Virus record (IMG/VR): IMGVR_UViG_2585427741_000003 | Origin: a virus | Taxonomy: Duplodnaviria; Heunggongvirae; Uroviricota; Caudoviricetes | DNA: 20,949 nucleotides | Direction: 5' to 3' (one strand) | Shown: positions 1 to 20,949 of the stretch, in pieces | Position numbering within the stretch: the stretch's first letter is position 1 | Layout of the letters: each line of letters starts with the position of its first letter | Made by a program: the position numbers and the translations under genes | Notes under the pieces: generated by a model | Seen by the model: only the letters and a program-made list of their open reading frames with translations | Databases searched by the model: none | Told to the model about the DNA's origin: nothing

Positions 1-305
<305 letters not shown>

Positions 306-343: not shown

Positions 344-1201
344 ATGAGCACCATCCTGAAATGGGCAGGTAATAAAACTGCCATTATGTCCGAACTGAAA
401 AAACATCTTCCTGCTGGCCCGCGACTGGTTGAACCTTTCGCGGGTTCCTGTGCTGTGATGATGGAGACGGATTACCCCAGCTATCTTGTTGCGGATATTA
501 ATCCTGATTTAATCAACCTCTATAAAAAGGTTGCTGCTGATTGTGAATCGTTTATATCTCGCGCCAGAGTTTTTTTTGAGATCGCAAACAGGGAGGTGGC
601 TTATTACAACATAAGGCAGGAGTTTAATTACTCAACTGAAATTACTGATTTCATGAAAGCGGTATATTTCCTGTATCTAAATCGTCACGGTTACCGTGGT
701 TTATGTCGCTATAACAAGAGCGGGCATTTCAACATTCCCTACGGTAATTATAAAAATCCGTATTTCCCTGAAAAAGAAATTCGCGCATTTGCAGAAAAAG
801 CCCAGCGGGCAACGTTTATCTGCGCCAGCTTTGATGAAACGCTGGCGATGTTGAAAGCGGGGGATGTGGTGTATTGCGATCCGCCGTATGACGGTACGTT
901 TTCCGGCTATCACACTGACGGCTTCACTGAAGATGACCAGTATCACCTGGCATCTGTTCTTGAACATCGATCATCAGAAGGTCATCCGGTCATTGTTTCT
1001 AACAGTGACACATCCCTGATCCGTTCGCTGTATCGCAATTTCACTCACCACTACATCAAGGCAAAACGCAGCATCGGCGTGTCAGCTGGCGAGAGTAAAT
1101 CTGCAACAGAAATCATTGCTGTTTCCGGGCCGCGCTGCTGGATGGGATTTGATCCTTCGCGTGGCGTGGATAGTTCTGCTGTGTACGAGGTGCGTGTATG
1201 A
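344..1201 (+). CDS. DNA N6-adenine methyltransferase, Dam (D12 class) family
   Basis: 285 aa; N-terminal SAM-binding KWAGNK...EPFAGS signature and catalytic DPPY motif (CDPPYDGTF). RBS CAGGAGG lies 6-12 nt upstream of the ATG. Stop overlaps the start of the next gene (ATGA at 1198-1201). Confidence 0.9.
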
Positions 1202-3612
1202 GTAATGACGATATGAGCAACTCTAGCGGCTTTAACGAGGCTGCCGCAGCATTTTCATGGAACGGCCCGAAAAAGGCCATTAACCCTTATCTGGAACCGG
1301 AGGAAGTTGCGCCGGAGTCTGCACTTTCAAACATGATCACTCTGTACGCTGCCGATAACGAGCAGGAACAGCAGCGCCGCGAGGCACTGAGTGATCAGGT
1401 CTGGGAACGTTATTTCTTTAATGAATCCCGTGATCCTGTCCAGCGCGAAATGGAGCAGGATAAGCTCATTAGCCGGGCAAAGCTGGCGCATGAGCAGCAG
1501 CGTTTTGACCCGGACATGGTCATTCTGTCGGACGTCAGCGCCCAGCCTACCCACATCAGCAAGCCGCTGATGCAACGTATCGAATACTTCAGCAGCCTGG
1601 GCAGGCCAAAGGCTTATTCCCGCTATTTGCGTGAGACGATTAAGCCATGTCTGGAGCGACTGGAGTATGTACGCGACAGTCAGCTATCCGCTTCTTTCCG
1701 TTTTATGGCAAGCCATCAAGGGCTTGAGGGCCTGCTGATCCTGCCTGAAATGAGTCAGGATCAGGTAAAACGCCTGTCCACCCTGGTAGCAGCGCATATG
1801 AGCATGTGTCTTGAGGCCGCTTGTGGTGATTTGTATGCCACCGATGACGTTAAGCCAGAAGAAATCCGCAAGACATGGGAAAAGGTGGCAGCGGAAACCC
1901 TGCGTCTGGATGTTATCCCGCCTGCGTTTGAGAAACTCCGCCGGAAAAGAAACCGCCGCAAACCTGTGCCCTATGAACTCATACCGGGTTCGCTGGCACG
2001 TATGCTTTGCGCCGACTGGTGGTACCGGAAATTATGGAAGATGCGTTGCGAATGGCGGGAAGAGCAGTTGCGTGCTGCCTGTCTGGTCAGCAAAAAAGCA
2101 TCTCCCTATGTCAGCTATGAAGCAGTGACACATAAACGTGAGCAGCGCCGCAAGTCGCTGGAGTTTTTCCGTTCTCATGAACTGGTGAACGAAGACGGCG
2201 ACACGCTGGATATGGAAGATGTGGTAAACGCCAGCAGCAGCAACCCGGCGCATCGCCGCAATGAGATGATGGCCTGTGTTAAAGGTCTGGAGCTTATCGC
2301 AGAAATGCGTGGTGACTGCGCCGTTTTCTACACTATCACCTGTCCGTCACGTTTCCATTCCACGCTCAACAACGGCAGACCCAACCCGACCTGGACAAAT
2401 GCGACGGTAAGACAAAGCAGCGATTATCTGGTCGGCATGTTTGCTGCATTTCGTAAGGCGATGCACAAAGCCGGGTTGCGCTGGTATGGCGTGCGGGTGG
2501 CTGAGCCGCACCATGACGGTACTGTGCACTGGCATCTCATGTGTTTCATGCGCAAAAAAGACCGCCGCGCTATTACTGCATTGTTGCGTAAGTTTGCCAT
2601 CCGTGAAGACCGCGAGGAACTGGGCAATAACACGGGGCCACGCTTTAAGTCTGAGCTGATAAACCCGCGCAAAGGAACGCCAACAAGCTACATCGCGAAA
2701 TACATCAGTAAGAACATTGACGGACGTGGTCTGGCTGGCGAGATCAGCAAGGAAACGGGTAAATCCCTGCGTGATAACGCCGAATACGTTAATGCCTGGG
2801 CGTCTCTGCATCGTGTTCAGCAGTTCCGCTTCTTTGGTATTCCGGGGCGTCAGGCGTACCGTGAACTTCGCTTGCTGGCTGGTCAGGCGGCAAGGCAACA
2901 GGGTGACAAAAAAGCAGGTGCGCCGGTACTGGATGACCCGCGCCTTGATGCCATCCTGGCTGCCGCTGATGCTGGCTGTTTTGCCACCTACATCATGAAG
3001 CAGGGCGGCGTACTGGTTCCCCGCAAATATCACCTTATCAGAACAGCTTATGAAATTAACGAAGAGCCGACCGCTTATGGCGATCACGGTATTCGTATTT
3101 ATGGCATCTGGTCACCCATTGTACAGGGCAAGATCTGCACTCATGCAATGAAATGGAAAATGGTTCGTAAGGCCGTTGACGTTCAGGAGGCGGCAGCCGA
3201 CCAGGGCGCTTGCGCCCCTTGGACTCGTGGCAATAACTGTCCCCTTGCTGAAAATTTGAACCAACAAGGGAAAGACAAATCAGCTGATGGGGACTCCAGA
3301 ACGGATATTACCCGTATGAATGACAAGGAGTTGCACGATTACCTGCACAGTATGAGCAAAAAAGAGCGCCGGGAACTGGCTGCAAGGTTACGCCAGGTGA
3401 AACCGAAACGGCGTAAAGACTACAAACAGCGAATTACAGACCATCAGCGACTGCAGCTCGTGTATGAGCTGAAGTCCAGAGGATTTGATGGCAGCGAGAA
3501 AGAGGTCGATTTACTCCTTCGCGGAGGCAGTATTCCGTCAGGAGCAGGCCTGCGTATCTTCTATCGGAACCAGCGTTTGCAGGAAGATGATCAGTGGCGG
3601 AACCTGTATTAA
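1198..3612 (+). CDS. A: Rolling-circle replication initiator endonuclease, P2 gpA-like
   Basis: 804 aa; metal-binding [11 protein letters not shown] (HxH-type motif) and catalytic tyrosine region [12 protein letters not shown] typical of the phage GPA replication-initiator family. Size is close to P2 gpA (about 760 aa, recalled). Confidence 0.88.
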
Positions 3613-3964: not shown

Positions 3965-4198
3965 ATGCGCATTGAAATAATGATCGATAAAGAGCAGAAG
4001 ATTAGCCAGTCTACCCTGGACGCCCTTGAATCCGAGCTTTACCGCAATCTGCGCCCCCTGTATCCCAAAACGGTAATTCGCATTCGCAAAGGTAGCTCTA
4101 ACGGTGTGGAACTAACCGGACTGCAACTGGACGAAGAAAGAAAACAAGTGATGAAAATTATGCAGAAGGTGTGGGAAGACGACAGCTGGCTGCATTAA
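3965..4198 (+). CDS. DinI-family protein (DNA-damage-inducible protein I-like)
   Basis: 77 aa, MRIEIMIDKEQKISQSTLDALESELYRNL...KQVMKIMQKVWEDDSWLH. The MRIE start, the central LDAL..EL block and the C-terminal acidic W-containing tail match the recalled DinI/MsgA pattern. RBS GAGGTGA lies upstream. Confidence 0.7.
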   Translation: MRIEIMIDKEQKISQSTLDALESELYRNLRPLYPKTVIRIRKGSSNGVELTGLQLDEERKQVMKIMQKVWEDDSWLH

Positions 4199-4333
4199 GA
4201 AACGTTGCTGGCGTCTGAACTTGCTTCTGGCGTCAGCAAGGTTGAACAACGAGCCCTTGCGAGGCGTTAGCTCTGTAGTGCATGTCTATGCCGCATGAGA
4301 TCGCATGATCGTTTGAGGATCGTTTTTGCTAAG

Positions 4334-4357
4334 GCCCGCCAGAACTGGCGGGCTTTT
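4334..4357 (+). terminator. Rho-independent terminator candidate
   Basis: GC-rich inverted repeat GCCCGCCAG / CTGGCGGGC followed by TTTT, downstream of the DinI-like gene. Confidence 0.6.
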
Positions 4358-4402
4358 GCGTAGATCATGCAGGTGCATGAAAACCACTACATAAAGCGGG
4401 CA

Positions 4403-4421
4403 GGCGTGGCGGGGATACGAG
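4403..4421. other. Putative cos (cohesive-end) site of the P2/186 type
   Basis: GGCGTGGCGGGGATACGAG: the first 13 nt match the recalled 186 cohesive end (GGCGTGGCGGGGA...) and resemble P2 cos (GGCGAGGCGGGGA...). Position fits the conserved order: replication region, cos, portal. Confidence 0.4.
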
Positions 4422-4434
4422 CGCGCGCAGCGGG

Positions 4435-4463
4435 TGGAAACTCAGATTTGAATGTTGTATAAA
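4435..4463 (+). promoter_or_regulatory. Candidate sigma70 promoter for the retron operon
   Basis: TGGAAA (4435-4440), 17-bp spacer, TATAAA (4458-4463), about 30 bp upstream of the effector ATG. Sequence match only. Confidence 0.35.
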
Positions 4464-4492
4464 AGATGGGATCATTCTGAGGAAAAGTGGAT

Positions 4493-5398
4493 ATGAAAAA
4501 GAAAACTATTCCGGAGTTGCAGAAGCAAAATCTGGCAAATTTAATTAAAAGTCGGCTTTTTCAACAGAAAAATAAAAATAAAGTTACTGTTTTCCTTTGC
4601 GGGGGCGATTTGAATGATCCGTTTTTTTGTAGAAATAAAGTTAAAAGAGTGTTGGAAACACATCCCAAAATAGAAATATTCTATCCTGAGGAGTTGTTTG
4701 ATGAGCTTTTGTATGGACAAGGTCAGCATAGTCTTTTAAGTTTGGAGAATATTTTAGCTGATTCAGTCGATGTTATTATTATTATTCCTGAAAGCCCAGG
4801 GTCTTTCGCTGAATTGGGCGCATTTTCAAATAATGAAAAACTGTGCAAAAAAATGATATGTCTTCAGGATGACAAATTCAAACTTAAAAAAAGCTTTCTT
4901 AATTATGGGCCTATAAAACTGCTTCGGCGTGCTAATAGCGGTGCAGTATTGCGAGGAGATTTGTCGACTCTTGAAAGCTTGAGTACAGGTAAAGCTTTTT
5001 ATAATAGAATTATAAAAAGTATTAATGACATCAAAAAAAATAACCCAGTTAATCACTCAATAGATAATATTCTTCACGCTCGGCGTTTTATACTGCCATG
5101 TATATATTTGATGGATGGTATAGATAATATACTTCTATATGAGCTATTACATTTGGTGACTAAGAAAGATGCTATTCTTTGTGAAATTATCGTTAAGTCT
5201 GTTATTTCAAGCTTGATTAAAGAGTCAATAATTAGGCGTTCAGTTCAAGGATACCATATTACAGAAATTGGTATGCAATACGTTCTTGAGCATTTTGATC
5301 GAAAGGCTTTGGACAATCTACGACTGGATATGATGAACTTCGAAAATCGTGGTAAAACAATACTCCACTATGATAGGATGCGTTTTGCGCACCCTTAG
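4493..5398 (+). CDS. Retron effector candidate: nucleoside 2-deoxyribosyltransferase-like (NDT-like) N-terminal domain plus C-terminal helical, possibly DNA-binding, domain
   Basis: 301 aa from ATG 4493 (RBS GAGGAAA upstream; the ORF track begins two codons earlier at GTG 4487). Rossmann-like start KVTVFLCGG and DVIIIIPESPGSFAELGAF block with a candidate catalytic Glu in SFAELG. Low-GC codon usage unlike the flanking phage genes. Stop codon TAG (5396-5398) lies inside retron repeat a1. Confidence 0.65.
   Translation: MKKKTIPELQKQNLANLIKSRLFQQKNKNKVTVFLCGGDLNDPFFCRNKVKRVLETHPKIEIFYPEELFDELLYGQGQHSLLSLENILADSVDVIIIIPESPGSFAELGAFSNNEKLCKKMICLQDDKFKLKKSFLNYGPIKLLRRANSGAVLRGDLSTLESLSTGKAFYNRIIKSINDIKKNNPVNHSIDNILHARRFILPCIYLMDGIDNILLYELLHLVTKKDAILCEIIVKSVISSLIKESIIRRSVQGYHITEIGMQYVLEHFDRKALDNLRLDMMNFENRGKTILHYDRMRFAHP
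5387..5397 (+). repeat. Retron inverted repeat a1
   Basis: GCGCACCCTTA; exact reverse complement of 5535-5545. Confidence 0.8.
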
Positions 5399-5534
5399 CG
5401 AGTGGCTTCTCCGGAAGTTCACTGGACAGTGTTTCGCTGTCCTACATACAATCTGAAGTTTTACCAGTTCCCTCATTGAAAGGAGAACATCTCCCGATGT
5501 TCTCCTTTCACTTCGGAATCTGATTTTTATGACG

Positions 5535-5545
5535 TAAGGGTGCGC
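5535..5545 (+). repeat. Retron inverted repeat a2
   Basis: TAAGGGTGCGC; exact reverse complement of 5387-5397; ends 2 nt before the RT start codon. Confidence 0.8.
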
Positions 5546-5547
5546 TC

Positions 5548-6522
5548 ATGACTTCCGCAACACCATCTCAGGTTTTTCGCTTACGCAATCTTGGATTGCC
5601 TGTTATGTCCTCTTTAGAGGATATGTCTAGAGAAATGCGTTTATCAGTAGACATACTCCGGTTGTACATTTATCGTGCTGACAAATACTATAAGGTTTAT
5701 TCGTTGCCAAAAAGAGATGGCAAGAGATCCCGCATCATTTCACAGCCATCACGTGAGCTGAAGGCATTGCAAGCTTGGGTGTTAAGAAACATCCTTGATA
5801 AGTTACATTCATCCCCATTTTCCAAAGGCTTTGAAAAAGGGCAATCAATATTAAATAATGCCAGCCCACATGTAGGAGCTAACTATGTATTAAATATTGA
5901 TTTAGAAGATTGTTTTAATACTATTCTGATAGAGAAAATCTATACTGTTTTTCATTCTCTGGGGTATAACTCTACTATTTCTAATGCTTTAGCAAGATTG
6001 TGTTCATTTAATGGTTCGCTACCTCAAGGTGCACCATCTTCTCCAAAGATTGCGAATCTTGTTTTAACTAAATTAGATTATAGAATACATGGATATGCAG
6101 GTAGTAAGGGGATCGTATTTACTCGATATGCCGATGATTTGACTTTATCTGCTCAATCTTTAAAAAAAATACTTAAAGCTAAGTCATTTGTATGCTCTAT
6201 AATACCAAGTGAATCTTTGAAGGTTAATTATAATAAAGTTGCGATTCATGGCCCCAAAGCAAGGAAGGAGGTTACTGGGCTCGTTTTATCTATTGATAAT
6301 GTTGGAGTTGGCAGAATACGTTATCGCGAAATTAGAAGTAAGATCCATTATCTGGCGGTAAAAAGAAATTCTGATTTCGAACATGTTAAAGGACTTATTG
6401 CGTTTGTTAAAAGTGTAGACAAGAAAAACTATAGAAAATTGATGACTTTCTCAAATAAAATGTCTGAAGCATATGGGGTTGATCTAAGTGTTCTTTTTCC
6501 TAAAAACAAAAAGGCCATTTAA
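5548..6522 (+). CDS. ret: Retron-type reverse transcriptase
   Basis: 324 aa; RT motifs: PKRDGKRSRIISQP (motif 1/2), NASPH (retron NAxxH), LPQGAPSSPKIANL (motif 4), RYADDL (catalytic YADD), and the retron-specific VTG (EVTGLVL). Size is typical of Ec86/Ec73-class RTs. Low-GC composition. Confidence 0.92.
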   Translation: MTSATPSQVFRLRNLGLPVMSSLEDMSREMRLSVDILRLYIYRADKYYKVYSLPKRDGKRSRIISQPSRELKALQAWVLRNILDKLHSSPFSKGFEKGQSILNNASPHVGANYVLNIDLEDCFNTILIEKIYTVFHSLGYNSTISNALARLCSFNGSLPQGAPSSPKIANLVLTKLDYRIHGYAGSKGIVFTRYADDLTLSAQSLKKILKAKSFVCSIIPSESLKVNYNKVAIHGPKARKEVTGLVLSIDNVGVGRIRYREIRSKIHYLAVKRNSDFEHVKGLIAFVKSVDKKNYRKLMTFSNKMSEAYGVDLSVLFPKNKKAI

Positions 6523-6532
6523 TGGCCTTTTT
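6508..6532. terminator. Palindromic A/T-flanked hairpin between convergent RT and portal genes (possible bidirectional terminator)
   Basis: AAAAAGGCCATTTAATGGCCTTTTT is a perfect 25-nt palindrome. It overlaps the RT stop codon and ends 5 nt before the portal gene stop (6538-6540, minus strand). Short GC stem, so moderate confidence. Confidence 0.45.
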
Positions 6533-6537
6533 GTTTA

Positions 6538-7569
6538 TTAGGTAATTGAATAACTCACGAAATTAATAACTTCTTCATTTATCCATTCGTTCAGCTCTTC
6601 TAGTCTTTTTTGTAAAGGGATGAGTTCATTCCTCACAAAAACATTAGCAGCTTTCTCTACATCCCCAAACCCTCCAACATTATTAGGCATAATCCCCATC
6701 ATTTGCGGTGGCACACGATGCGCCGCCATCATGTCATCCCGGCTCACGTTCTTGATGTTCAGAAACTCATCCTTCGCCGCGACCTCTGACAACGGGATAA
6801 TCTGAAGCCCGTCCTTTTTGCCGTTAGGCGAGTACATAAACAGGTTGCGGAAGTTACCCGGTCCTTTGGCGCTTTTCATCGCGTTGCGGAGGTTGTTCAC
6901 GTCCTCCTGGTTCTGCGCGGCATCGGTCATGTACATGATGAAGCCAGCATGACTGCCGTTTATGTAATACTTTCGACGGAACAGCGTGGCGGACTCATTG
7001 AGCAGGGCGGACGGAATAGCAGAAAGATAGCCGGGCAGGCCATAGATCTCCTGATTTATGTCCGGTTCCATCAGATGGAAAATGCTGCCTTTCGTGAACT
7101 GATACGGTTGCGTGGTCATGCCGTATTGCACAAACCAGTAGGTATCTAGGTCTAATCCACGTCGGGTGTATTTTGCCAGCGCAGGCTCAAGAGCGATAAC
7201 TTCACCGAATCGGTTCGTGCGTTTCTCCAGGTAGGCGTTACCAAATACCAGATAGTCCTGCACAAAACGTGAAAAAGCCTGCTGGCTGAGCAGCGGGTGA
7301 GGGATGTAGGTACTGGTCAGAATGTTGCACTTTACTGCAATCGGGGAACTGTGATGCACAGCAGCGCGGAAGGTGCGCGCCAGTCCGTCAAAGCTGACGG
7401 GAGGCTCATACCAGCGATCTGTCTGTACGCATTCCACATAGTCCAGCAGTTCGCGGCGGTCAAGTACGGGAATGGGATCACCGAAGCTGAATGCTTCGGC
7501 TGTAGTCTGGCTTTTGAGCTGGCTCTGTTTCGTCGCCGCAGCGCGGTTCTTCTTACTCTTTCCCATCAA
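6538..7569 (-). CDS. Q: Portal protein, P2 gpQ-like
   Basis: 343 aa (P2 Q about 344 aa, recalled); position and orientation (leftward, next to P) match the P2/186 map. Start overlaps the stop of P (ATGA). Confidence 0.85.
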   Translation of the reverse strand: MMGKSKKNRAAATKQSQLKSQTTAEAFSFGDPIPVLDRRELLDYVECVQTDRWYEPPVSFDGLARTFRAAVHHSSPIAVKCNILTSTYIPHPLLSQQAFSRFVQDYLVFGNAYLEKRTNRFGEVIALEPALAKYTRRGLDLDTYWFVQYGMTTQPYQFTKGSIFHLMEPDINQEIYGLPGYLSAIPSALLNESATLFRRKYYINGSHAGFIMYMTDAAQNQEDVNNLRNAMKSAKGPGNFRNLFMYSPNGKKDGLQIIPLSEVAAKDEFLNIKNVSRDDMMAAHRVPPQMMGIMPNNVGGFGDVEKAANVFVRNELIPLQKRLEELNEWINEEVINFVSYSIT

Positions 7570-9332
7570 AAAATCTCCACAATATTGCTGGTATTGGCAG
7601 ACTCGCCCTGCAGCGGTTCGTTAAAGAGTGCGTGCATTGTTGCCCAGGCCAGATCGGCATGGCTGGCTTCTTCGCTGCGGCTGGCTTCATAGGTCGGGCG
7701 GTTGCCGCTGGCGGTGGTGGCGCGACGGATTGCCATGAAGGACTGCGCAATGTCGGTGTGTCCGGCGTCAAATTCTAGGCGGCGGTGACTGATAATGTCG
7801 TAGGCCTTGAGTACCAGGGCGTTTTTAACGTTGGGGTTGTAGACAAACTCCCGGACGGCAGGAAAGAATGCTTTCACGTTCTCGTAAACCCCGTGGCCGA
7901 CGCCAGTTGAGTCGATGCCGATGTATGTCACGTTGTACTGTTCGGTCAGTTTTTTGATGGCGTCAGCCTGGGCGCGGAAGTCCATCCCGCGCCACTGGTG
8001 ACGCTCAAGAATGCGGAACTTACCGCCCGGCACGGCTGGCGGTGCCACCACCACGCACCCGGCGCTGTCGCCGTTTTGCGTACCTTTTGCCGGGTCATAA
8101 CCGATCCACACTTCGCGCCAGCCAAACGGGCGCAGGGCCAGTGCATGAAAGTCGGTCCAGACTTCCCAGCTGTCCACCATGCACGCCTGCAGCTCGCTGA
8201 GCGGGAACACGGACGCGAGATCGTCCACGAATTCACACATCAGCAGGTTCTGGTATTCGTCCGGGCTGTATTCCATGCGCAACTGGTCAAGGTCGAACAG
8301 GTTACAGCCGCCGCGCACCGCATCTTCCACGGTGACTATCTGGCGGTATTGCCCGTCTGCACACAGCAGGCCTGGAGCCAGATTGCTGTGGGACAGGTCG
8401 ATGTCCACCTTGTCGGCTTTATTGCGCCCACGGTTGAACAGCGCACCGGACCAGAACGGATAAGCACTGTGTGTCAGGCTGGATGGCGTGGAAAAATAGG
8501 TTTGTCGCCATTTTTTGTGAATAGCCATACCGGAAGCCACTTTGCGCAGCTCCTGGAATTTCGGTATCCAGAAATATTCATCCAGATACAGGTTGCCGTG
8601 GTAACTCTGGGCCGTGCGGGCATTGGTGCCGAGGAAGTACAGCGTGGCCCCGTTAGGAAGCACCATCGGATCGCCTTTCAGCTCCACCTCCACTTCTTTG
8701 GCAAAGTCGATGATGTACTGCTTAAAGACGTGGGCCTGTGCCTTACTGGCGGAAAGGAAAATCTGGTTACGTCCGGTCAGCAGGGCGTCAATCAGGGCTT
8801 CACGGGCAAAATAGAAGGTCGCGCCGATCTGGCGTGACTTCAGCAGGTTGCGGATGCGGTTGGTTTTTCCGGCTTCCCACCAGTGGCGCTGGTAGTTGAA
8901 CATGGAGGAATGGAAGATTTCTTCCAGCTTCTCAATCTGTTCATCGGTGAAGACATTCTTTTCCGGCTGACGGCGCGGGCCCTTGTTGCGGTTGGCGACG
9001 TTAGGATTTAAGTCGGCTTCGTTGCCGCCATTGTTAAACTTGCCGATCCGCGCGTGGCGCTCCGACTGGCGCGCCAGCAGGTCAATCTCTTTGAAATCTT
9101 TCCCTTCTTTGTGCTCCTTCATAATGAGCTGGCAGTAGCGTGCGGCGGTGGTGAGCTGCATCTGATCCAGCGGCCCATAGTCACCCCACTTGTCGCGTTT
9201 TTTCCAGCTGTGAACGGTTGCAACTTTCTCGCCCAGCATTTCAGCAATGCGGGCTACGCGGTATCCCTGAAAGTACAGCAGCATGGCCTGCCGACGGGGA
9301 TCGAGATCTGCGGGTGTCAGTGTGGTGTTCAT
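7566..9332 (-). CDS. P: Terminase ATPase (large) subunit, P2 gpP-like
   Basis: 588 aa (P2 P about 590 aa, recalled); leftward orientation, divergent from the O-N-M-L operon as in P2/186. Confidence 0.85.
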   Translation of the reverse strand: MNTTLTPADLDPRRQAMLLYFQGYRVARIAEMLGEKVATVHSWKKRDKWGDYGPLDQMQLTTAARYCQLIMKEHKEGKDFKEIDLLARQSERHARIGKFNNGGNEADLNPNVANRNKGPRRQPEKNVFTDEQIEKLEEIFHSSMFNYQRHWWEAGKTNRIRNLLKSRQIGATFYFAREALIDALLTGRNQIFLSASKAQAHVFKQYIIDFAKEVEVELKGDPMVLPNGATLYFLGTNARTAQSYHGNLYLDEYFWIPKFQELRKVASGMAIHKKWRQTYFSTPSSLTHSAYPFWSGALFNRGRNKADKVDIDLSHSNLAPGLLCADGQYRQIVTVEDAVRGGCNLFDLDQLRMEYSPDEYQNLLMCEFVDDLASVFPLSELQACMVDSWEVWTDFHALALRPFGWREVWIGYDPAKGTQNGDSAGCVVVAPPAVPGGKFRILERHQWRGMDFRAQADAIKKLTEQYNVTYIGIDSTGVGHGVYENVKAFFPAVREFVYNPNVKNALVLKAYDIISHRRLEFDAGHTDIAQSFMAIRRATTASGNRPTYEASRSEEASHADLAWATMHALFNEPLQGESANTSNIVEIF

Positions 9333-17176: not shown

Positions 17177-17774
17177 TCTGCTGCCACCGGGTTCAACTTC
17201 ACTGGAGCGCCGACTGGCGCAAACCTGTAGCGGGATTTCTGATCTGCAGGTGCCGCTGCGTGACTTGTGGAATCCGGCGACTTGTCCGGTCAGTTTCCTG
17301 CCTTATCTCGCCTGGGCGTTCTCTGTGGATCGCTGGGACGAGAGCTGGACAGAAAGCGTCAAACGCCAGGTGGTGAAGGATGCTTTTTATATTCATCAGC
17401 ACAAAGGAACCACCAGTGCCGTGCGGCGGGTGGTGGAGCCGTTCGGCTTCCTGATCCGCATTATTGAGTGGTGGCAGACCGGAGAAACACCGGGCACGTT
17501 TCGCCTGGATATCGGCGTGCAGGATCAGGGCATCACTGAAGATACCTATCTGGAACTTGAGCGGCTGATAAGCGATGCCAAACCATGTAGCCGTCACATG
17601 ATCGGCATGTCCATCAATCTGCAGACCAGCGGTCCGCATTGGGTGGGGGCCGCCAGCTATCTTGGCGAAGAAATCACGATCTATCCGTATATCAACGAAA
17701 CAATTATTTCCGGCGGCACCGCGCATGAAGGCGGGGCGGTCCATGTTATTGACACAATGAGAGTGAATCCATGA
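17169..17774 (+). CDS. I: Baseplate / tail-fibre attachment protein, P2 gpI-like
   Basis: 201 aa; LWNP.TCP, LAWAFSVDRWDE, HKGT and GTFRLDIGV blocks match recalled P2 gpI. Confidence 0.9.
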   Translation: MNSLLPPGSTSLERRLAQTCSGISDLQVPLRDLWNPATCPVSFLPYLAWAFSVDRWDESWTESVKRQVVKDAFYIHQHKGTTSAVRRVVEPFGFLIRIIEWWQTGETPGTFRLDIGVQDQGITEDTYLELERLISDAKPCSRHMIGMSINLQTSGPHWVGAASYLGEEITIYPYINETIISGGTAHEGGAVHVIDTMRVNP

Positions 17775-19168
17775 GCACAAAATTTTATACCCTGCTGACG
17801 GATATTGGCGCGGCGAAACTTGCCAGCGCCGCCGCGCTCGGTGTGCCTTTAAAAATTACCCATATGGCGGTAGGCGATGGCGGCGGAACATTGCCAACGC
17901 CGGACGCAAAGCAGACAGCATTAGTAAATGAGAAACGCCGGGCTGCGCTGAATATGCTGTACATCGACCCGCAGAACAGCAGCCAGATTATTGCCGAACA
18001 GGTGATCCCTGAAAACGAGGGCGGTTGGTGGATACGTGAAGTGGGCTTGTTTGATGAGTCCGGGGCATTGATTGCCGTGGGCAACTGCCCGGAAAGCTAT
18101 AAGCCGCAACTGGCTGAAGGTAGCGGGCGCACTCAGACCGTGCGCATGGTGCTGATTACCAGCAGCACGGACAATATCACCCTGAAAATCGACCCTGCCG
18201 TCGTGCTGGCAACCCGCAAGTATGTGGATGACAAGGTACTGGAGCTGAAGGTGTTCGTGGATGATAAGATGGCAAAACATCTTGCCGCACCGGACCCGCA
18301 TTCACAGTATGCACCCAAAGAAAGCCCGACATTGACCGGAACACCCAAAGCGCCAACGCCAGCGGAGGGGAATAACACCACGCAGATTGCGACCACCGCG
18401 TTTGTTCAGGCGGCACTGATGGCCCTTATTAATGGTGCGCCAGCCACACTGGATACGCTGAAAGAAATTGCCGCTGCCATTAATAATGACCCGAAATTCA
18501 GTACCACCATTAACAATGCGCTGGCACTGAAAGCGCCGCTGTTAAGTCCGGCACTCACCGGAACGCCAACAGCCCCCACTGCCGCACAGTCGGTTAACAA
18601 TACACAGATTGCCACCACGGCTTTTGTGAAATCGGCAATTGCGGCAATGGTGGGGTCTGCACCTGCTGCACTGGATACACTGAACGAACTGGCTGCGGCG
18701 CTGGGGAATGACCCGAACTTTGCCACGACAATGCTTAATGCGCTGGCAGGTAAACAACCGCTGGACAATACGCTGACTAATTTGAGTGGAAAGGATGTAG
18801 CTGGTCTTCTCGCATACCTTGGTTTGGGAGAATTATCTCTGGCTGGCACTGCATCGGGTGTCATTGGCCTGAATGGGTATGTAACGATCCCGTTAATTAT
18901 TTCAGGTTCCCGGAGAACACTGATTATTCAGTGGGGGCAGGCGAGATTTGGTGGGTCTGGTGGTGAAGATGCCGGATATCTTAACGATTTTCCTTTTGCC
19001 TTTCCGTCAGCATGTTATGGAATGATAGTTAGTCATGTGGGGCATACACCTTCAGGCGCAGGAATCTTGTCGGCTTCTGCAATTACATCAAATCAGTTCC
19101 GCGGTTTTTCAAGCATAGCGACTGCTGCAAACGCTGTATTAGGTCGTTATATCGCTATAGGGGTGTAA
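17771..19168 (+). CDS. H: Tail fibre protein, P2 gpH-like; C-terminal about 116 codons (18820-19168) lie inside the invertible segment
   Basis: 465 aa; N-terminal 160 aa match recalled P2 gpH (MAVGDGGG, AESYKPALAEGSGR-like blocks). Central tandem fibre repeats (ALTGTPTAPT...NNTQIATTAFV...LDTLNELAAALGNDPNFATT) are shared with P2 H. The C-terminus downstream of the crossover site is unrelated to P2 H. Confidence 0.9.
   Translation: MSTKFYTLLTDIGAAKLASAAALGVPLKITHMAVGDGGGTLPTPDAKQTALVNEKRRAALNMLYIDPQNSSQIIAEQVIPENEGGWWIREVGLFDESGALIAVGNCPESYKPQLAEGSGRTQTVRMVLITSSTDNITLKIDPAVVLATRKYVDDKVLELKVFVDDKMAKHLAAPDPHSQYAPKESPTLTGTPKAPTPAEGNNTTQIATTAFVQAALMALINGAPATLDTLKEIAAAINNDPKFSTTINNALALKAPLLSPALTGTPTAPTAAQSVNNTQIATTAFVKSAIAAMVGSAPAALDTLNELAAALGNDPNFATTMLNALAGKQPLDNTLTNLSGKDVAGLLAYLGLGELSLAGTASGVIGLNGYVTIPLIISGSRRTLIIQWGQARFGGSGGEDAGYLNDFPFAFPSACYGMIVSHVGHTPSGAGILSASAITSNQFRGFSSIATAANAVLGRYIAIGV
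18322..18762 (+). repeat. Two tandem ~220-bp (about 74-codon) imperfect repeats inside the tail-fibre gene
   Basis: Protein-level repeat: TLTGTPKAPTPAEGNNTTQIATTAFVQAALMALINGAPATLDTLKEIAAAINNDPKFSTTINNALALKAP versus ALTGTPTAPTAAQSVNNTQIATTAFVKSAIAAMVGSAPAALDTLNELAAALGNDPNFATTMLNALAGKQP. Confidence 0.8.
18807..18832. promoter_or_regulatory. Left crossover site of the invertible segment (gix/hix/pix-like, 26 bp)
   Basis: TTCTCGCATACCTTGGTTTGGGAGAA: 26 bp with imperfect dyad symmetry around a central TT. The inner 14 bp TTGGTTTGGGAGAA are exactly repeated in inverted orientation at 20679-20692. Confidence 0.7.
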
Positions 19169-19169
19169 T

Positions 19170-19607
19170 ATGTTTTATAGTCCATCTTTAAACATTTTTG
19201 TGAATCCTGCACTTAAGGATGATTACATTAATGCAAATTCATGGCCAGATGATGCTCTGGCTGTCAGTGATGATGTTTATAATGAATTTGCAATCAATAC
19301 GCCTCCAGATGACAAAATTCGTGTTGCAGGAAAAAATGGATTACCCACATGGGCACTAATACCTCCACCATCACATGAAGAACTTATTCAACAGCCAGAA
19401 TCAGAAAGGCAATTATTGCTTAATCAGGCCAACGAATACATGAACAGTAAGCAATGGCCCGGTAAAGCCGCTATTGGTCGTCTGAAAGGTGATGAACTGG
19501 CGCAATATAATTTGTGGCTGGATTATCTGGACGCACTGGAGCTGATCGATACTTCCGGTGCGCCAGATATTGAATGGCCTACGCCTCCGGCAGTTCAGGC
19601 CAGATGA
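19170..19607 (+). CDS. Tail fibre assembly protein (Tfa/gpG-like), paired with the currently expressed fibre C-terminus
   Basis: 145 aa; starts 1 nt after the H stop; conserved C-terminal Tfa signature (LW.DY.DA.E.ID...APDIEWP). Confidence 0.8.
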   Translation: MFYSPSLNIFVNPALKDDYINANSWPDDALAVSDDVYNEFAINTPPDDKIRVAGKNGLPTWALIPPPSHEELIQQPESERQLLLNQANEYMNSKQWPGKAAIGRLKGDELAQYNLWLDYLDALELIDTSGAPDIEWPTPPAVQAR

Positions 19608-20181
19608 CATCCGGCGCTGTGCTGGTATCTGTTGCCGTCACCGCGTCAATGTAATCCAGCACAGCGTTAAGGCGGGTTGTTTCTGCCTGCGTCAGCTTCC
19701 GTCCGGCCTGTAATTTCAGTTGAATCAGACTGATGGAGGCCATTGCAGTATCAATCAGCGACTGGCGCTGTGCTTCTGCTGCATCTACTGCTGCGCCGTG
19801 CTGTGCCTCGGTATCTGTCACCCATTTCTCACCATTCCATTCATCGTATGGCGTTAACGGGGCGATAGTGGTTGTATTTTCAGGATAATCACCCGGAGCT
19901 GTGATTTCTTTCGATTCTCCTGTTTCGGTGCTATAGACGATTTCACCGCGATGATCTGGCACATATTCCCATGAATTTAAATCTACAGAGCGACAGATTG
20001 CATAACCAGCTTTATGTGTACCTGGTGCATCCAAACAAGAACATGCCGGAATACCGACGCCGACAGCGAGATATTCAGTTGATGTAGAAATATATTCACG
20101 CGTTTCACCATCATAGTTATAAACAGTAATATTTCCTGCCTGGGTGGCGATAAATTCGTTATTTAATACGGCGTAATCCAT
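19579..20181 (-). CDS. Alternative tail fibre assembly protein (Tfa-like), inverted orientation
   Basis: 200 aa on the minus strand; C-terminal LDYIDAVTATDTSTAPDVIWPELP is the same Tfa signature; convergent with and overlapping the plus-strand tfa by 29 bp; start overlaps the stop of the alternative fibre segment (TAATGG). Confidence 0.8.
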   Translation of the reverse strand: MDYAVLNNEFIATQAGNITVYNYDGETREYISTSTEYLAVGVGIPACSCLDAPGTHKAGYAICRSVDLNSWEYVPDHRGEIVYSTETGESKEITAPGDYPENTTTIAPLTPYDEWNGEKWVTDTEAQHGAAVDAAEAQRQSLIDTAMASISLIQLKLQAGRKLTQAETTRLNAVLDYIDAVTATDTSTAPDVIWPELPEA

Positions 20182-20691
20182 TATGCAGCCCTCACGATAT
20201 ACGCAAATGCCAGGTTCCGTGGTCTGGTTTCTTTAATTAAAGAGGAGGCATCAGGTGAACTCACTGATTCAGCACCATTTCTTCCACCAGTGGTATAAGT
20301 AAAAACTCTTTCACTGTTAGACCAGTAATCCACACCAACTGTTTTTGCTGATGAAAAAATGGTTTCATCAGATATAACCTGTTCTATTCCATACGGGATA
20401 TTAGTAACTGACCCCACTTTTGTAGGTATTCCATGATTATGAGAAATTACTGCATGCTCTTGATTCGTTAATAAAGTACGACCGCTATCCACTCCACGCC
20501 CGTCATCCCAGCCACGAATAAACTCACCACGTAAATCAGGCAATTTATTTGTCGGATAAGCCTTTGCCAGTTCCGGGTATTCTTCAGCAGAAAAAGCGGC
20601 ACCGTTGCATTTCAGCCAGCCTGTTGGCGGAGTGGCGGAAGGCCACGGAACAGGCACGCCAACGGGTAATGCCGAACCTTCTCCCAAACCA
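20181..20691 (-). CDS. Alternative tail fibre C-terminal segment (promoterless, expressed only after inversion fuses it to the constant part of H)
   Basis: Minus-strand frame is open from the crossover site (..GLGE GSALPVGVPVPWPSATPPTGWLKCNGAAF...) to the stop at 20181. It shares the in-frame GLGE junction codons with H at 18819-18832. The ORF-track Met at 20732 lies outside the segment and is unlikely to be a real start. Confidence 0.7.
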
Positions 20692-20704
20692 ACGTTTATG
20701 AAAA
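20679..20704. promoter_or_regulatory. Right crossover site of the invertible segment
   Basis: TTCTCCCAAACCAACGTTTATGAAAA with central AA; its reverse complement TTTTCATAAACGTTGGTTTGGGAGAA shares the 14-bp inner half with the left site. Confidence 0.7.
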
Positions 20705-20759
20705 TGCAGAGATAACGGCTAACTGGCATCATCCCCGGTTTTTATTCAGGGGATTGATC

Positions 20760-20949
20760 ATGCTTATTGGCTATGTACGCGTGTCAACAAATGACCAGAA
20801 CACCGATTTGCAACGTAGTGCGCTGAACTGCGCGGGATGTGAGCGGATTTTTGAGGATAAAATCAGCGGCACTAAGTCCGACAGACCGGGGCTGAAAAAA
20901 CTGCTCAGGACACTATCGGCAGGAGACACGCTGGTTGTCTGGAAGCTGG
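20760..20949 (+). CDS. Serine DNA invertase (Gin/Pin/Cin/Hin family), N-terminal part; 3' end outside window
   Basis: MLIGYVRVSTNDQNTDLQRSALNCAGCERIFEDKISGTKSDRPGLKKLLRTLSAGDTLVVWKL: the canonical N-terminus of the small serine invertases, with the catalytic Ser in the YVRVST motif. Confidence 0.9.
   Translation, partial: MLIGYVRVSTNDQNTDLQRSALNCAGCERIFEDKISGTKSDRPGLKKLLRTLSAGDTLVVWKL

What the first reader, a model, noticed from the sequence alone, without database searches (positions are those of the whole stretch)
4435..6532. Complete retron (NDT-like effector, msr-msd ncRNA, reverse transcriptase) carried as cargo between cos and the portal gene
Three co-oriented elements with no relation to phage morphogenesis fill the normally short interval between the cohesive-end site and gene Q. 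(i) 4493-5398 encodes a protein with a nucleoside-2-deoxyribosyltransferase-like N-terminal half (VFLCGG; IIIPESPGSFAELGAF) and a helical C-terminal half. (ii) 5386-5545 is a structured non-coding segment bounded by perfect 11-bp inverted repeats. (iii) 5548-6522 encodes a reverse transcriptase carrying the retron-specific NAxxH (NASPH) and VTG motifs alongside the QGAPSSP and YADD boxes. This is the architecture of the Ec86 (Retron-Eco1) / Retron-Sen2 class, whose NDT-like effectors are toxins held in check by the RT-msDNA complex and released on phage infection. From memory the RT and the ends of the ncRNA are clearly related to Ec86, but the msd stem and much of the protein sequence differ, so this looks like a distinct family member rather than Ec86 itself. 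It would be expected to act as an abortive-infection defence that the prophage lends to its host.
Basis: partly seen in the sequence, partly recalled or inferred. Interest (0 to 1): 0.85.

Follow-up and report, generated by a model that had tools for sequence, protein, structure and literature searches.

The report
Ec86-type retron in prophage hotspot
This is a complete, intact retron anti-phage system closely related to the well-studied E. coli retron Ec86, carried by a P2/186-like prophage in the same slot next to its packaging site where Ec86 sits; it is correctly recognised but an ordinary, already catalogued member of a known family.

Summary
Three co-oriented, low-GC parts lie between the prophage cos site (4403-4421) and the portal gene (6538-7569, minus strand).

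- **Effector, 4493-5398.** It matches the solved Ec86 effector end to end (E 5e-92, 50% identity).
- **msr-msd ncRNA, 5386-5545.** It has a perfect 11-bp a1/a2 repeat and folds with z = -9.9. A covariance model built only from 12 relatives hits it at 139.6 bits.
- **Reverse transcriptase, 5548-6522.** It matches the Ec86 RT (E 5e-124, 58% identity).

Both proteins pass NCBIfam's curated "retron St85 family" cut-offs. Both hit the same PADLOC II-A sub-models as Ec86, which places the system in type II-A3.

Ec86 sits about 72 bp after the identical cos 19-mer in its own prophage, so this is an allelic alternative at a published hotspot. The exact protein pair is listed in Rousset et al. 2022, Table S5A, and RefSeq already annotates it.

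The sensor part differs from Ec86. The predicted ~82-nt msDNA lacks the CCWGG site through which phage Dcm triggers Ec86. Five of the six effector residues that contact the Ec86 msDNA stem are changed, while catalytic and dimer residues are kept.

Verdict: a real retron, a new member of a known kind, of low to moderate interest.

The parts
4403..4421 (.). cos-like 19-mer GGCGTGGCGGGGATACGAG, the cohesive-end site of the prophage. It is context, not part of the retron.
   Evidence: 15 of 19 bases identical to the annotated cos of phage 186. The same 19-mer occurs in the Ec86 prophages and in phage vB_EcoM-813R9.
4429..4492 (+). Retron-specific upstream leader, with a presumed promoter and a GAGGA ribosome-binding site at 4480-4484. 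The left cargo boundary is at about 4429.
   Evidence: Alignment with four other prophages is conserved through 4428 and then diverges. Phage matches end at 4429-4435. The promoter is inferred only: the consensus scan was no better than chance.
4493..5398 (+). Effector gene (301 aa): N-terminal NDT-like N-glycosidase lobe plus C-terminal helical/DNA-binding lobe. Predicted catalytic residue Glu107.
   Evidence: PADLOC NDT_II-A 2.5e-97. NCBIfam NF038232, 186 bits against cut-off 100. PDB Ec86 effector E 5e-92, residues 1-301 against 1-307. E65, D69, S100, E106, F128, K131, S133, N136, E84, N112 and N113 of Ec86 are all conserved.
5386..5545 (+). msr-msd non-coding RNA, complete from a1 to a2.
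   Evidence: Fold z = -9.9. 95% of cells paired and 17 of 34 pairs with compensatory changes, 0 of 500 shuffles as good. Covariance model built without the window: 139.6 bits, E 1e-32, model positions 1-162 of 162.
5387..5397 (+). a1 inverted repeat (GCGCACCCTTA). It overlaps the last four codons of the effector.
   Evidence: 100% complementary to 5535-5545.
5398..5398 (+). Predicted priming (branching) guanosine in the invariant UUAGC context. It is also the last base of the effector stop codon.
   Evidence: T10, T11, A12, G13 and C14 are invariant in 13 relatives. In Retron-Eco1 the priming G lies immediately after a1 within UAGC (PMC11754653). The position is assigned by homology and was not tested.
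5401..5423 (+). msr stem-loop P2.
   Evidence: MFE fold. Its sequence differs from the Ec86 P2, but a hairpin occupies the same place in every relative.
5424..5442 (+). msr stem-loop P3 with a UUU loop (5432-5434), the presumed RT recognition hairpin.
   Evidence: Fold z = -5.6. 99% of cells paired, with 3 covarying pairs. The UUU loop is the RT recognition element in Retron-Eco1 (PMC11754653).
5452..5533 (+). msd template. The predicted msDNA is its reverse complement, about 82 nt (81 by the cryo-EM count used for Eco1), with a hairpin at 5465-5522.
   Evidence: Start and stop assigned by alignment to Ec86 msd. Hairpin arms are 27 nt. The DNA fold is -19.1 kcal/mol. No CCWGG and no GATC.
5535..5545 (+). 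a2 inverted repeat (TAAGGGTGCGC), ending 2 nt before the RT start codon.
5548..6522 (+). Retron reverse transcriptase (324 aa) with NASPH, QGAPSSP, YADD and VTG.
   Evidence: PADLOC RT_II-A 4.9e-123. NCBIfam NF038233, 272 bits against cut-off 235. PDB Ec86 RT E 5e-124. Pfam RVT_1 1e-24.
6500..6541 (.). Bidirectional terminator-like hairpin (GGCCAU/AUGGCC core flanked by A and U runs), shared by the RT and the convergent portal gene.
   Evidence: -21.8 kcal/mol (z = -6.0) on the plus strand and -20.8 kcal/mol (z = -7.5) on the minus strand.

Best explanation
Window 4429-6541 is an intact type II-A3 retron, a homologue of Retron-Eco1/Ec86. It is carried as accessory cargo in the cos-proximal gpA-gpQ hotspot of a 186/P2-like prophage.

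The mechanism below is inferred by homology to Ec86 and was not shown for this element.
1. The operon is transcribed rightwards from the leader after cos.
2. The a1/a2 duplex (5387-5397 with 5535-5545) places G5398 so that its 2'-OH primes the RT.
3. The RT, docked on the P3 UUU hairpin, copies msd from 5533 leftwards to about 5452. This gives an ~82-nt hairpin msDNA joined 2'-5' to the msr RNA.
4. RT-msDNA binds the effector and holds its N-glycosidase lobe (Glu107) inactive, probably in filaments.
5. A phage product that modifies or destroys the msDNA stem releases the effector. The effector then depletes NAD(P)+ and adenine nucleotides and aborts the infection, protecting the lysogen population and the prophage.

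The sensing surface has diverged from Ec86. The msDNA stem is different and lacks CCWGG, and the effector residues that touch the Ec86 stem are replaced. The trigger is therefore probably not Dcm methylation of CCWGG, at about even odds.
For: - **Family membership of all three parts:**
- **Intactness:** both ORFs are full length relative to Ec86. YADD, NAxxH and VTG are present. Eleven of the twelve active-site and dimer residues validated by mutagenesis or structure in Ec86 are identical, and the twelfth is R141K.
- **RT N-terminus:** the segment FRLRNLGLPVM is identical to Ec86. It lies in the N-terminal region whose helix PMC12673091 calls essential for Eco1 dimerisation.
- **ncRNA:** the canonical architecture is supported by covariation.
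- **Conservation:** the DNA is 99.8-100% identical in 4 complete E. coli genomes, and the identical effector sequence occurs on 498 contigs.
- **Hotspot context:** Ec86 sits at the same position. Other cargo, such as Hypoth_Ymh, occupies it in related phages. The hotspot is published.
- **Ec86 mechanism and trigger:** bioRxiv 10.1101/2023.08.16.553469 and the summary in PMC12673091.
- **Sensor divergence:** no CCWGG or GATC in the predicted msDNA. The Ec86 stem-contact residues are changed: K149 to G, K177 to N, K178 to R, K185 to D and R219 to I, together with a 7-residue deletion.
Against: - Nothing was measured for this element: no msDNA, no toxicity test and no plaque assay.
- The promoter is not identified.
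- The stem-contact lysines and the CCWGG site are also variable among close Ec86 relatives such as E. ludwigii and E. cloacae. Their absence here is therefore weak evidence for a new trigger.
- The biochemical activity of the Ec86 effector is still described inconsistently in the literature, as adenine-derivative depletion in one place and NAD(P)+ hydrolysis or ADP-ribosylation in another.
Confidence: 0.85

Rival explanations
1. It works exactly like Ec86, including the trigger: a phage C5-cytosine methyltransferase methylates the msDNA stem, at a non-canonical site, and activates the effector.
For: Same subtype and architecture. 34 of 35 Ec86-sensitive phages encode Dcm, so methyltransferases are a common cue. 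The Ec86 site is itself only a one-strand site in an imperfect duplex.
Against: There is no CCWGG anywhere in the predicted msDNA. Changing CCTGG in Ec86 abolished defence. The effector residues facing that part of the stem are replaced.
Confidence: 0.2
2. It acts mainly as a toxin-antitoxin addiction module that stabilises the prophage, with anti-phage defence secondary or absent.
For: Retrons are tripartite toxin-antitoxin systems. The module sits on a mobile element. Natural loss events exist, for example the IS1-associated deletion in LR-48.
Against: Homologous Ec86 gives measurable phage defence. The hotspot is enriched for validated defence systems. Addiction does not explain rapid divergence of the msDNA stem and its contact surface.
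Confidence: 0.08
3. It is a decaying or silent copy: the sequence is intact, but it is not expressed or no longer makes msDNA.
For: No convincing sigma-70 promoter was found. Truncated RT and effector variants exist in some genomes. The retron is rare, in 4 of 5426 complete genomes.
Against: Both ORFs are full length with all catalytic motifs. The ncRNA keeps every conserved element and 95% pairing. The sequence is near-identical across unrelated isolates.
Confidence: 0.07

Closest known systems
Retron-Eco1 (Ec86), type II-A3, E. coli B/BL21
   Same: Same gene order: effector, msr-msd, RT. The effector stop overlaps a1 in both. The a1/a2 sequence is the same, as are the UUAGC priming context, the P3 UUU loop and the AAUCUGA termination region. 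Both hit the same PADLOC sub-models. Catalytic and dimer residues are the same. Both lie about 72-74 bp after the identical cos 19-mer of a 186-like prophage.
   Different: RT is 58%, effector 50% and DNA about 68% identical. The P2 and msd stem sequences differ, and msd is 4 nt shorter (82 against 86). The window msDNA has no CCWGG. The effector lacks a 7-residue segment and 5 of 6 stem-contact residues.
Uncharacterised II-A3 retrons of Serratia oryzae, Erwinia rhapontici, Pantoea and Pectobacterium (P0002/P0135, L084, L087, L004)
   Same: These are the closest lineage: RT 63-75% and effector 59-61% identical. They share the short effector form and the GAACATCTC(C/T)CGATGTTC central msd hairpin. 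Several lie in the same gpA-portal slot of P2-like prophages.
   Different: Their P3 loop is UCU rather than UUU. Several carry CCWGG and/or GATC in the msd stem, which the window copy lacks.
Retron-Sen2 (St85), type II-A1
   Same: It has an NDT-like effector (RcaT) held in check by RT-msDNA. NCBI places both under the 'retron St85 family' models.
   Different: It has a different RT clade (clade 1 against clade 9) and a different ncRNA type according to Mestre et al. 2020. The window proteins score much better on the Ec86-type PADLOC sub-models (408 against 223 and 197 bits for the RT).
P2/186 cos-proximal defence hotspot (Rousset et al. 2022)
   Same: The cargo lies between gpA and gpQ, next to cos. 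Retrons are among the listed cargo, and this exact protein pair appears in their Table S5A.
   Different: Nothing differs in kind. That study did not single out or test this retron, as far as the held text shows.

Membership tests
Retron (general) | RT with the retron-specific NAxxH motif (region X) and VTG triplet (region Y), plus a YxDD catalytic box | tested here: met
   NASPH at 104-108, VTG at 242-244 and YADD at 194-197. All are invariant in 27 relatives. The motifs are defined in PMC7736814.
Retron (general) | Adjacent ncRNA with a1/a2 inverted repeats, a conserved priming G right after a1, msr stem-loops and an msd hairpin | tested here: met
   Perfect 11-bp repeat, fold z = -9.9, covariation in 17 of 34 pairs, invariant UUAGC.
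Retron (general) | Production of branched multicopy single-stranded DNA (msDNA) | not testable with these tools
   This needs PAGE or sequencing of RT-DNA from cells carrying 4429-6541.
Type II-A3 retron (Retron-Eco1/Ec86 family) | RT belongs to the Ec86 RT group rather than other retron, group II intron or DRT reverse transcriptases | tested here: met
   The best PADLOC model, PDLC02941 (408 bits), is the same best model as for Ec86 RT (424 bits). PDB Ec86 RT E 5e-124, against the next retron at 1.9e-34. The group II intron model scores 60 bits against a cut-off of 300. No tree against Mestre's clade 9 set was built.
Type II-A3 retron (Retron-Eco1/Ec86 family) | Upstream effector with an N-terminal NDT-like lobe (catalytic Glu) and a C-terminal DNA-binding lobe | tested here: met
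   Full-length match to the solved Ec86 effector, E 5e-92. PADLOC PDLC02930, 324 bits, the same model as for Ec86. NF038232, 186 bits against cut-off 100. Glu107 aligns with Ec86 E106. There is no direct sequence hit to classical NDT families in Pfam or PDB, so 'NDT-like' rests on the published Ec86 structure.
Type II-A3 retron (Retron-Eco1/Ec86 family) | ncRNA of the Ec86 structural type | tested here: met
   A covariance model built from 12 relatives without the window gives 139.6 bits, E 1e-32, full length, and is the only strong hit in 20.9 kb. Rfam has no model that matches.
Type II-A3 retron (Retron-Eco1/Ec86 family) | Residues needed for effector dimerisation and filament formation and for the active site in Ec86 | tested here: met
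   E84, N112, N113, E65, D69, S100, E106, F128, K131, S133 and N136 are identical, and R141 is K. The residue list is from 10.1101/2023.08.16.553469.
Ec86-like trigger mechanism (Dcm methylation of the msDNA stem) | CCWGG site in the msDNA stem, plus lysines K149, K177 and K185 contacting that stem | tested here: not met
   No CCWGG in the predicted msDNA. K149 to G, K177 to N and K185 to D. This lowers the claim of the same trigger as Ec86, not the claim that it works like a II-A3 retron.
Anti-phage abortive-infection system | Protects against phage, and the effector is toxic when released | not testable with these tools
   Plaque assays and toxicity assays are required.
P2-like cos-proximal defence hotspot cargo | Located between gpA and gpQ next to cos, with unrelated cargo at the same place in related phages | tested here: met
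   gpA 1198-3612, DinI, cos 4403-4421, retron, portal 6538-7569. Alternative cargo is present in vB_EcoM-813R9. Phage 186 has none. The exact protein pair is listed in Rousset Table S5A.

The most novel reading that the evidence does not exclude
This retron and Ec86 are natural specificity alleles at one prophage locus. The enzyme core and RT are conserved, but the msDNA stem and the effector surface that reads it have been re-tooled, so this retron senses a different phage cue than Dcm methylation of CCWGG. Candidates are another DNA-modifying enzyme, a nuclease or an ssDNA-binding protein. If so, swapping msd stems and contact residues between the two would give a clean system for asking how retron II-A3 trigger specificity is encoded.
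Probability: 0.45. Interest if true: 0.45.

Novelty: new member of a known kind. Interest (0 to 1): 0.25.

Why it matters
It adds one uncharacterised, apparently functional relative of the best-understood retron, at the same prophage locus.

Three practical uses follow:
- A second RT/ncRNA pair, with a conserved P3 recognition loop but a different msd, for retron-based DNA production and editing.
- A natural comparison partner to Ec86 for mapping which msDNA and effector features set trigger specificity.
- A further example of defence-cargo exchange immediately after cos in P2/186-like prophages.

None of this changes current understanding of retrons.

Tried and rejected
- **Rfam.** Nothing was found at gathering threshold over the whole window, and only chance-level miRNA/snoRNA hits appeared at E up to 10 in 5300-5620. 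No curated retron ncRNA model covers this family.
- **Pfam-A.** The effector had no family at E up to 0.1, although related effectors carry a precomputed PF28093 (STM3845) label in the contig index. The local Pfam copy apparently lacks that model.
- **Phage collection.** Neither the retron nor any similar DNA was found in 50,697 phage records.
- **Genome-contig scan with the RT alignment.** The peptide patterns (PQGAPSSPK, YTRYADD) were too general. Most of the 80 loci were distant retron RTs and only about 6 were useful.
- **P0002 look-up.** This closest relative (75% identity, Serratia oryzae) could not be located on a contig.
- **Promoter scan.** It was no better than shuffled sequence, and it missed the RT/portal terminator hairpin, which was then confirmed by folding.
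- **Literature.** No main text holds the accessions or sequences. They are absent from the held supplements of the retron census. Mestre's supplements are not held.
- **Group II intron or DGR RT.** Considered and rejected.
- **Sen2-type II-A1 assignment.** Considered and rejected.
- **Structure prediction of the effector.** Not run. A 50%-identical, end-to-end match to a solved structure makes it redundant.
Full report
**What is in the sequence**

The window is a 186/P2-like (Peduoviridae) prophage. The gene order is as follows:
- a D12-class Dam methylase (344-1201);
- the replication endonuclease gpA (1198-3612);
- a small ORF and a DinI-like gene, ending at 4198;
- the convergent morphogenesis genes: portal 6538-7569 and terminase 7566-9332 on the minus strand;
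- scaffold, capsid, small terminase, lysis and tail genes.

A 19-mer, GGCGTGGCGGGGATACGAG, lies at 4403-4421. It matches the annotated cohesive end of phage 186 at 15 of 19 positions. In phage 186 only 177 bp separate cos from the portal stop codon. Here the gap is about 2.1 kb and has 33-38% GC, against 50-60% in the flanks.

**The two proteins**

The 4493-5398 product (301 aa) matches the solved Retron-Ec86 effector over its whole length: E 5e-92, residues 1-301 against 1-307, 50% identity. It also hits PADLOC NDT_II-A at 2.5e-97. It passes the curated cut-off of NCBIfam NF038232, "retron St85 family effector", with 186 bits against 100.

The 5548-6522 product (324 aa) matches the Ec86 RT at E 5e-124 and 58% identity. 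It hits PADLOC RT_II-A at 4.9e-123 and NF038233 with 272 bits against a cut-off of 235.

Ec86's proteins have the same best PADLOC sub-models with similar scores. Mestre et al. 2020 file Ec86 as type II-A3 ("Nuc_deoxy+Retron"), whereas Retron-Sen2 is II-A1 with another RT clade. The correct label is therefore type II-A3, not a joint Ec86/Sen2 class.

The retron-diagnostic NAxxH and VTG motifs, QGAPSSP and YADD are all present. They fall in invariant columns of a 27-member alignment.

The effector shows no direct sequence similarity to classical nucleoside 2-deoxyribosyltransferases in Pfam or the PDB. "NDT-like" rests on the published Ec86 structure.

**The ncRNA**

- The 11-nt arms 5387-5397 and 5535-5545 are perfectly complementary.
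- The 161-nt segment folds at -73.7 kcal/mol, z = -9.9.
- The fold has an a1/a2 stem, two msr hairpins and a long msd hairpin. The msr hairpins are P2 at 5401-5423 and P3 at 5424-5442, with a UUU loop. The msd hairpin spans 5465-5522.

I collected the homologous intergenic regions from 12 relatives. They come from Ec86, E. ludwigii, E. cloacae, Erwinia, Pantoea, Pectobacterium, Yersinia, Advenella, Vibrio and three metagenomic contigs.
- In the 13-sequence alignment, 95% of cells pair.
- Seventeen of 34 pairs show compensatory double changes.
- No shuffle out of 500 reached any measure, and slid controls fell to 34-48% pairing.

A covariance model built from the 12 relatives without the window finds one strong hit in the whole window. 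It spans exactly 5386-5545 on the plus strand, at 139.6 bits, E about 1e-32, covering the full model.

The UUAGC context of the priming guanosine is invariant. Work on Retron-Eco1 shows that this G, immediately after a1, and the P3 UUU loop are the two positions intolerant to mutation (PMC11754653).

By alignment to Ec86, reverse transcription should start opposite C5533 and stop near T5452. That gives an msDNA of about 82 nt, or 81 by the count used in the cryo-EM papers.

The effector ORF ends inside a1, and G5398 is both the last base of its TAG stop and the predicted branch point. Ec86 has the same arrangement.

A strong bidirectional hairpin at 6500-6541 closes both the RT gene and the convergent portal gene.

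**Context and prior knowledge**

Ec86 sits in exactly this slot. In BL21(DE3), and in an intact prophage of strain VG1046-3E9, the Ec86 effector starts 74 bp after the identical cos 19-mer and the RT abuts the portal gene.

An alignment of five prophages shows the backbone conserved through cos plus seven bases, to window 4428. Beyond that each carries its own leader and cargo. A related phage carries a Hypoth_Ymh protein there instead.

Rousset et al. 2022 described this gpA-gpQ, cos-adjacent region as a defence hotspot that includes retrons. Their Table S5A lists the exact pair WP_032301626 + WP_050488517.

The retron DNA occurs at 99.8-100% identity in 4 of 5426 complete E. coli genomes, annotated by PGAP as retron St85 family. 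The Ec86 allele accounts for the other 48 matching genomes, most of those listed being laboratory B derivatives. The identical effector protein is found on 498 contigs in public assemblies, including E. marmotae.

The closest non-Escherichia RT is from Serratia oryzae, at 75%. An Erwinia/Pantoea/Pectobacterium group is closer than Ec86, at 63-67% for the RT and 59-61% for the effector. That group shares the shorter effector and the central msd hairpin sequence.

I found no name or experiment for this particular retron.

**How it most likely works**

All steps are inferred from Ec86 and none were measured here.
1. The RT binds the folded transcript and primes from the 2'-OH of G5398.
2. It copies msd into a hairpin msDNA that stays attached to msr.
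3. The RT-msDNA complex binds the effector and keeps its N-glycosidase lobe inactive, in filaments.
4. A phage factor acting on the msDNA stem activates the effector.
5. The effector depletes NAD(P)+ and adenine nucleotides and aborts the infection.

Supporting conservation:
- Ec86 residues E65, D69, S100, E106, F128, K131, S133 and N136 (active site) are all identical here.
- Ec86 residues E84, N112 and N113 (dimer interface) are identical, and R141 is replaced by K.
- The RT N-terminal segment FRLRNLGLPVM is identical to Ec86. It lies in the region whose N-terminal helix is reported as essential for Eco1 dimerisation.

**What differs from Ec86**

The Ec86 trigger reported by Wang et al. is phage Dcm methylating CCTGG in the msDNA stem. 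Mutating that motif abolished defence. The predicted msDNA here has no CCWGG and no GATC.

Of the six Ec86 effector residues reported to contact the stem, only K29 is kept. K149, K177, K185 and R219 become G, N, D and I, and K178 becomes R. Seven residues are missing in that region.

The catalytic core is thus conserved while the sensing interface has changed, which suggests a different trigger. I rate this at about even odds only. The CCWGG site and these lysines are also variable in close Ec86 relatives, so they may not be a stable family feature.

The absence of GATC means that a GATC-specific Dam enzyme would find no site in the msDNA. The specificity of the prophage's own D12-class methylase was not determined. 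This observation is compatible with avoidance of self-triggering but is not evidence for it.

**Rivals**
- Same Dcm trigger through a non-canonical site: 0.2.
- Primarily a prophage-addiction module: 0.08.
- Silent or decaying copy: 0.07.

The last is argued against by intact ORFs, intact motifs, a fully conserved ncRNA and near-identity across isolates. Decayed copies do exist elsewhere.

**Verdict**

The element is a new, uncharacterised member of a known kind (type II-A3 retron) at a known hotspot. It is already machine-annotated and listed in a published supplementary table. Interest is low to moderate, at 0.25.

The most novel reading not excluded is that this retron and Ec86 are specificity alleles that sense different phage cues (probability about 0.45, interest if true about 0.45).

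Noticed in passing
window 17771-20949: Invertible tail-fibre (host-range) segment. The plus strand carries fibre 17771-19168 and its assembly protein 19170-19607. The minus strand carries an alternative fibre C-terminus 20181-20732 (Collar domain) and assembly protein 19579-20181. These are flanked by 26-nt inverted repeats at 18807-18832 and 20679-20704. The N-terminus of a serine invertase of Gin/Cin/Pin type (MLIGYVRVSTNDQNTDLQ...) runs from about 20759 off the window end.
   Followed up: partly
window 1-156: The first ~156 bases encode the C-terminus of a protein that I recognise from memory as an IS5-family transposase (...[18 protein letters not shown]). This was not checked against any library. 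If correct, an insertion sequence lies in the prophage early region just upstream of the Dam methylase gene, where strain H1 has intact early genes.
   Followed up: no
L093 (E. coli LR-48) 4248-5221; window 6312-6532: Strain LR-48 keeps only the last 221 bp of this RT gene (100% identical) next to the portal gene, directly beside an IS1 element. This looks like a natural IS1-associated deletion of the retron.
   Followed up: partly
protein clusters of the RT and effector: Some complete E. coli chromosomes encode truncated versions, with RT fragments of 208-224 aa and an effector of 189 aa. The retron is therefore decaying in some lineages.
   Followed up: no
window 344-1201 and 5452-5533: The prophage encodes its own D12-class N6-adenine methylase, and the predicted msDNA contains no GATC (nor CCWGG). 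Several related retrons carry GATC and/or CCWGG in the msd stem. Methylation-site content of the stem is highly variable across the family.
   Followed up: partly
L001 (E. coli H1) 8005-8808, compared with window 4198-4403: Strain H1 carries the identical retron but has two extra small ORFs (48 and 203 aa, hypothetical) between DinI and cos that the window lacks. The part of the hotspot on the gpA side of cos therefore varies independently of the retron.
   Followed up: no
L088 4193-5682; L091 4429-5039: Outside prophages, related II-A3 retrons sit beside other defence or toxin modules: Thoeris ThsA/ThsB immediately downstream in L088, and a Phd/Fic pair in L091.
   Followed up: no
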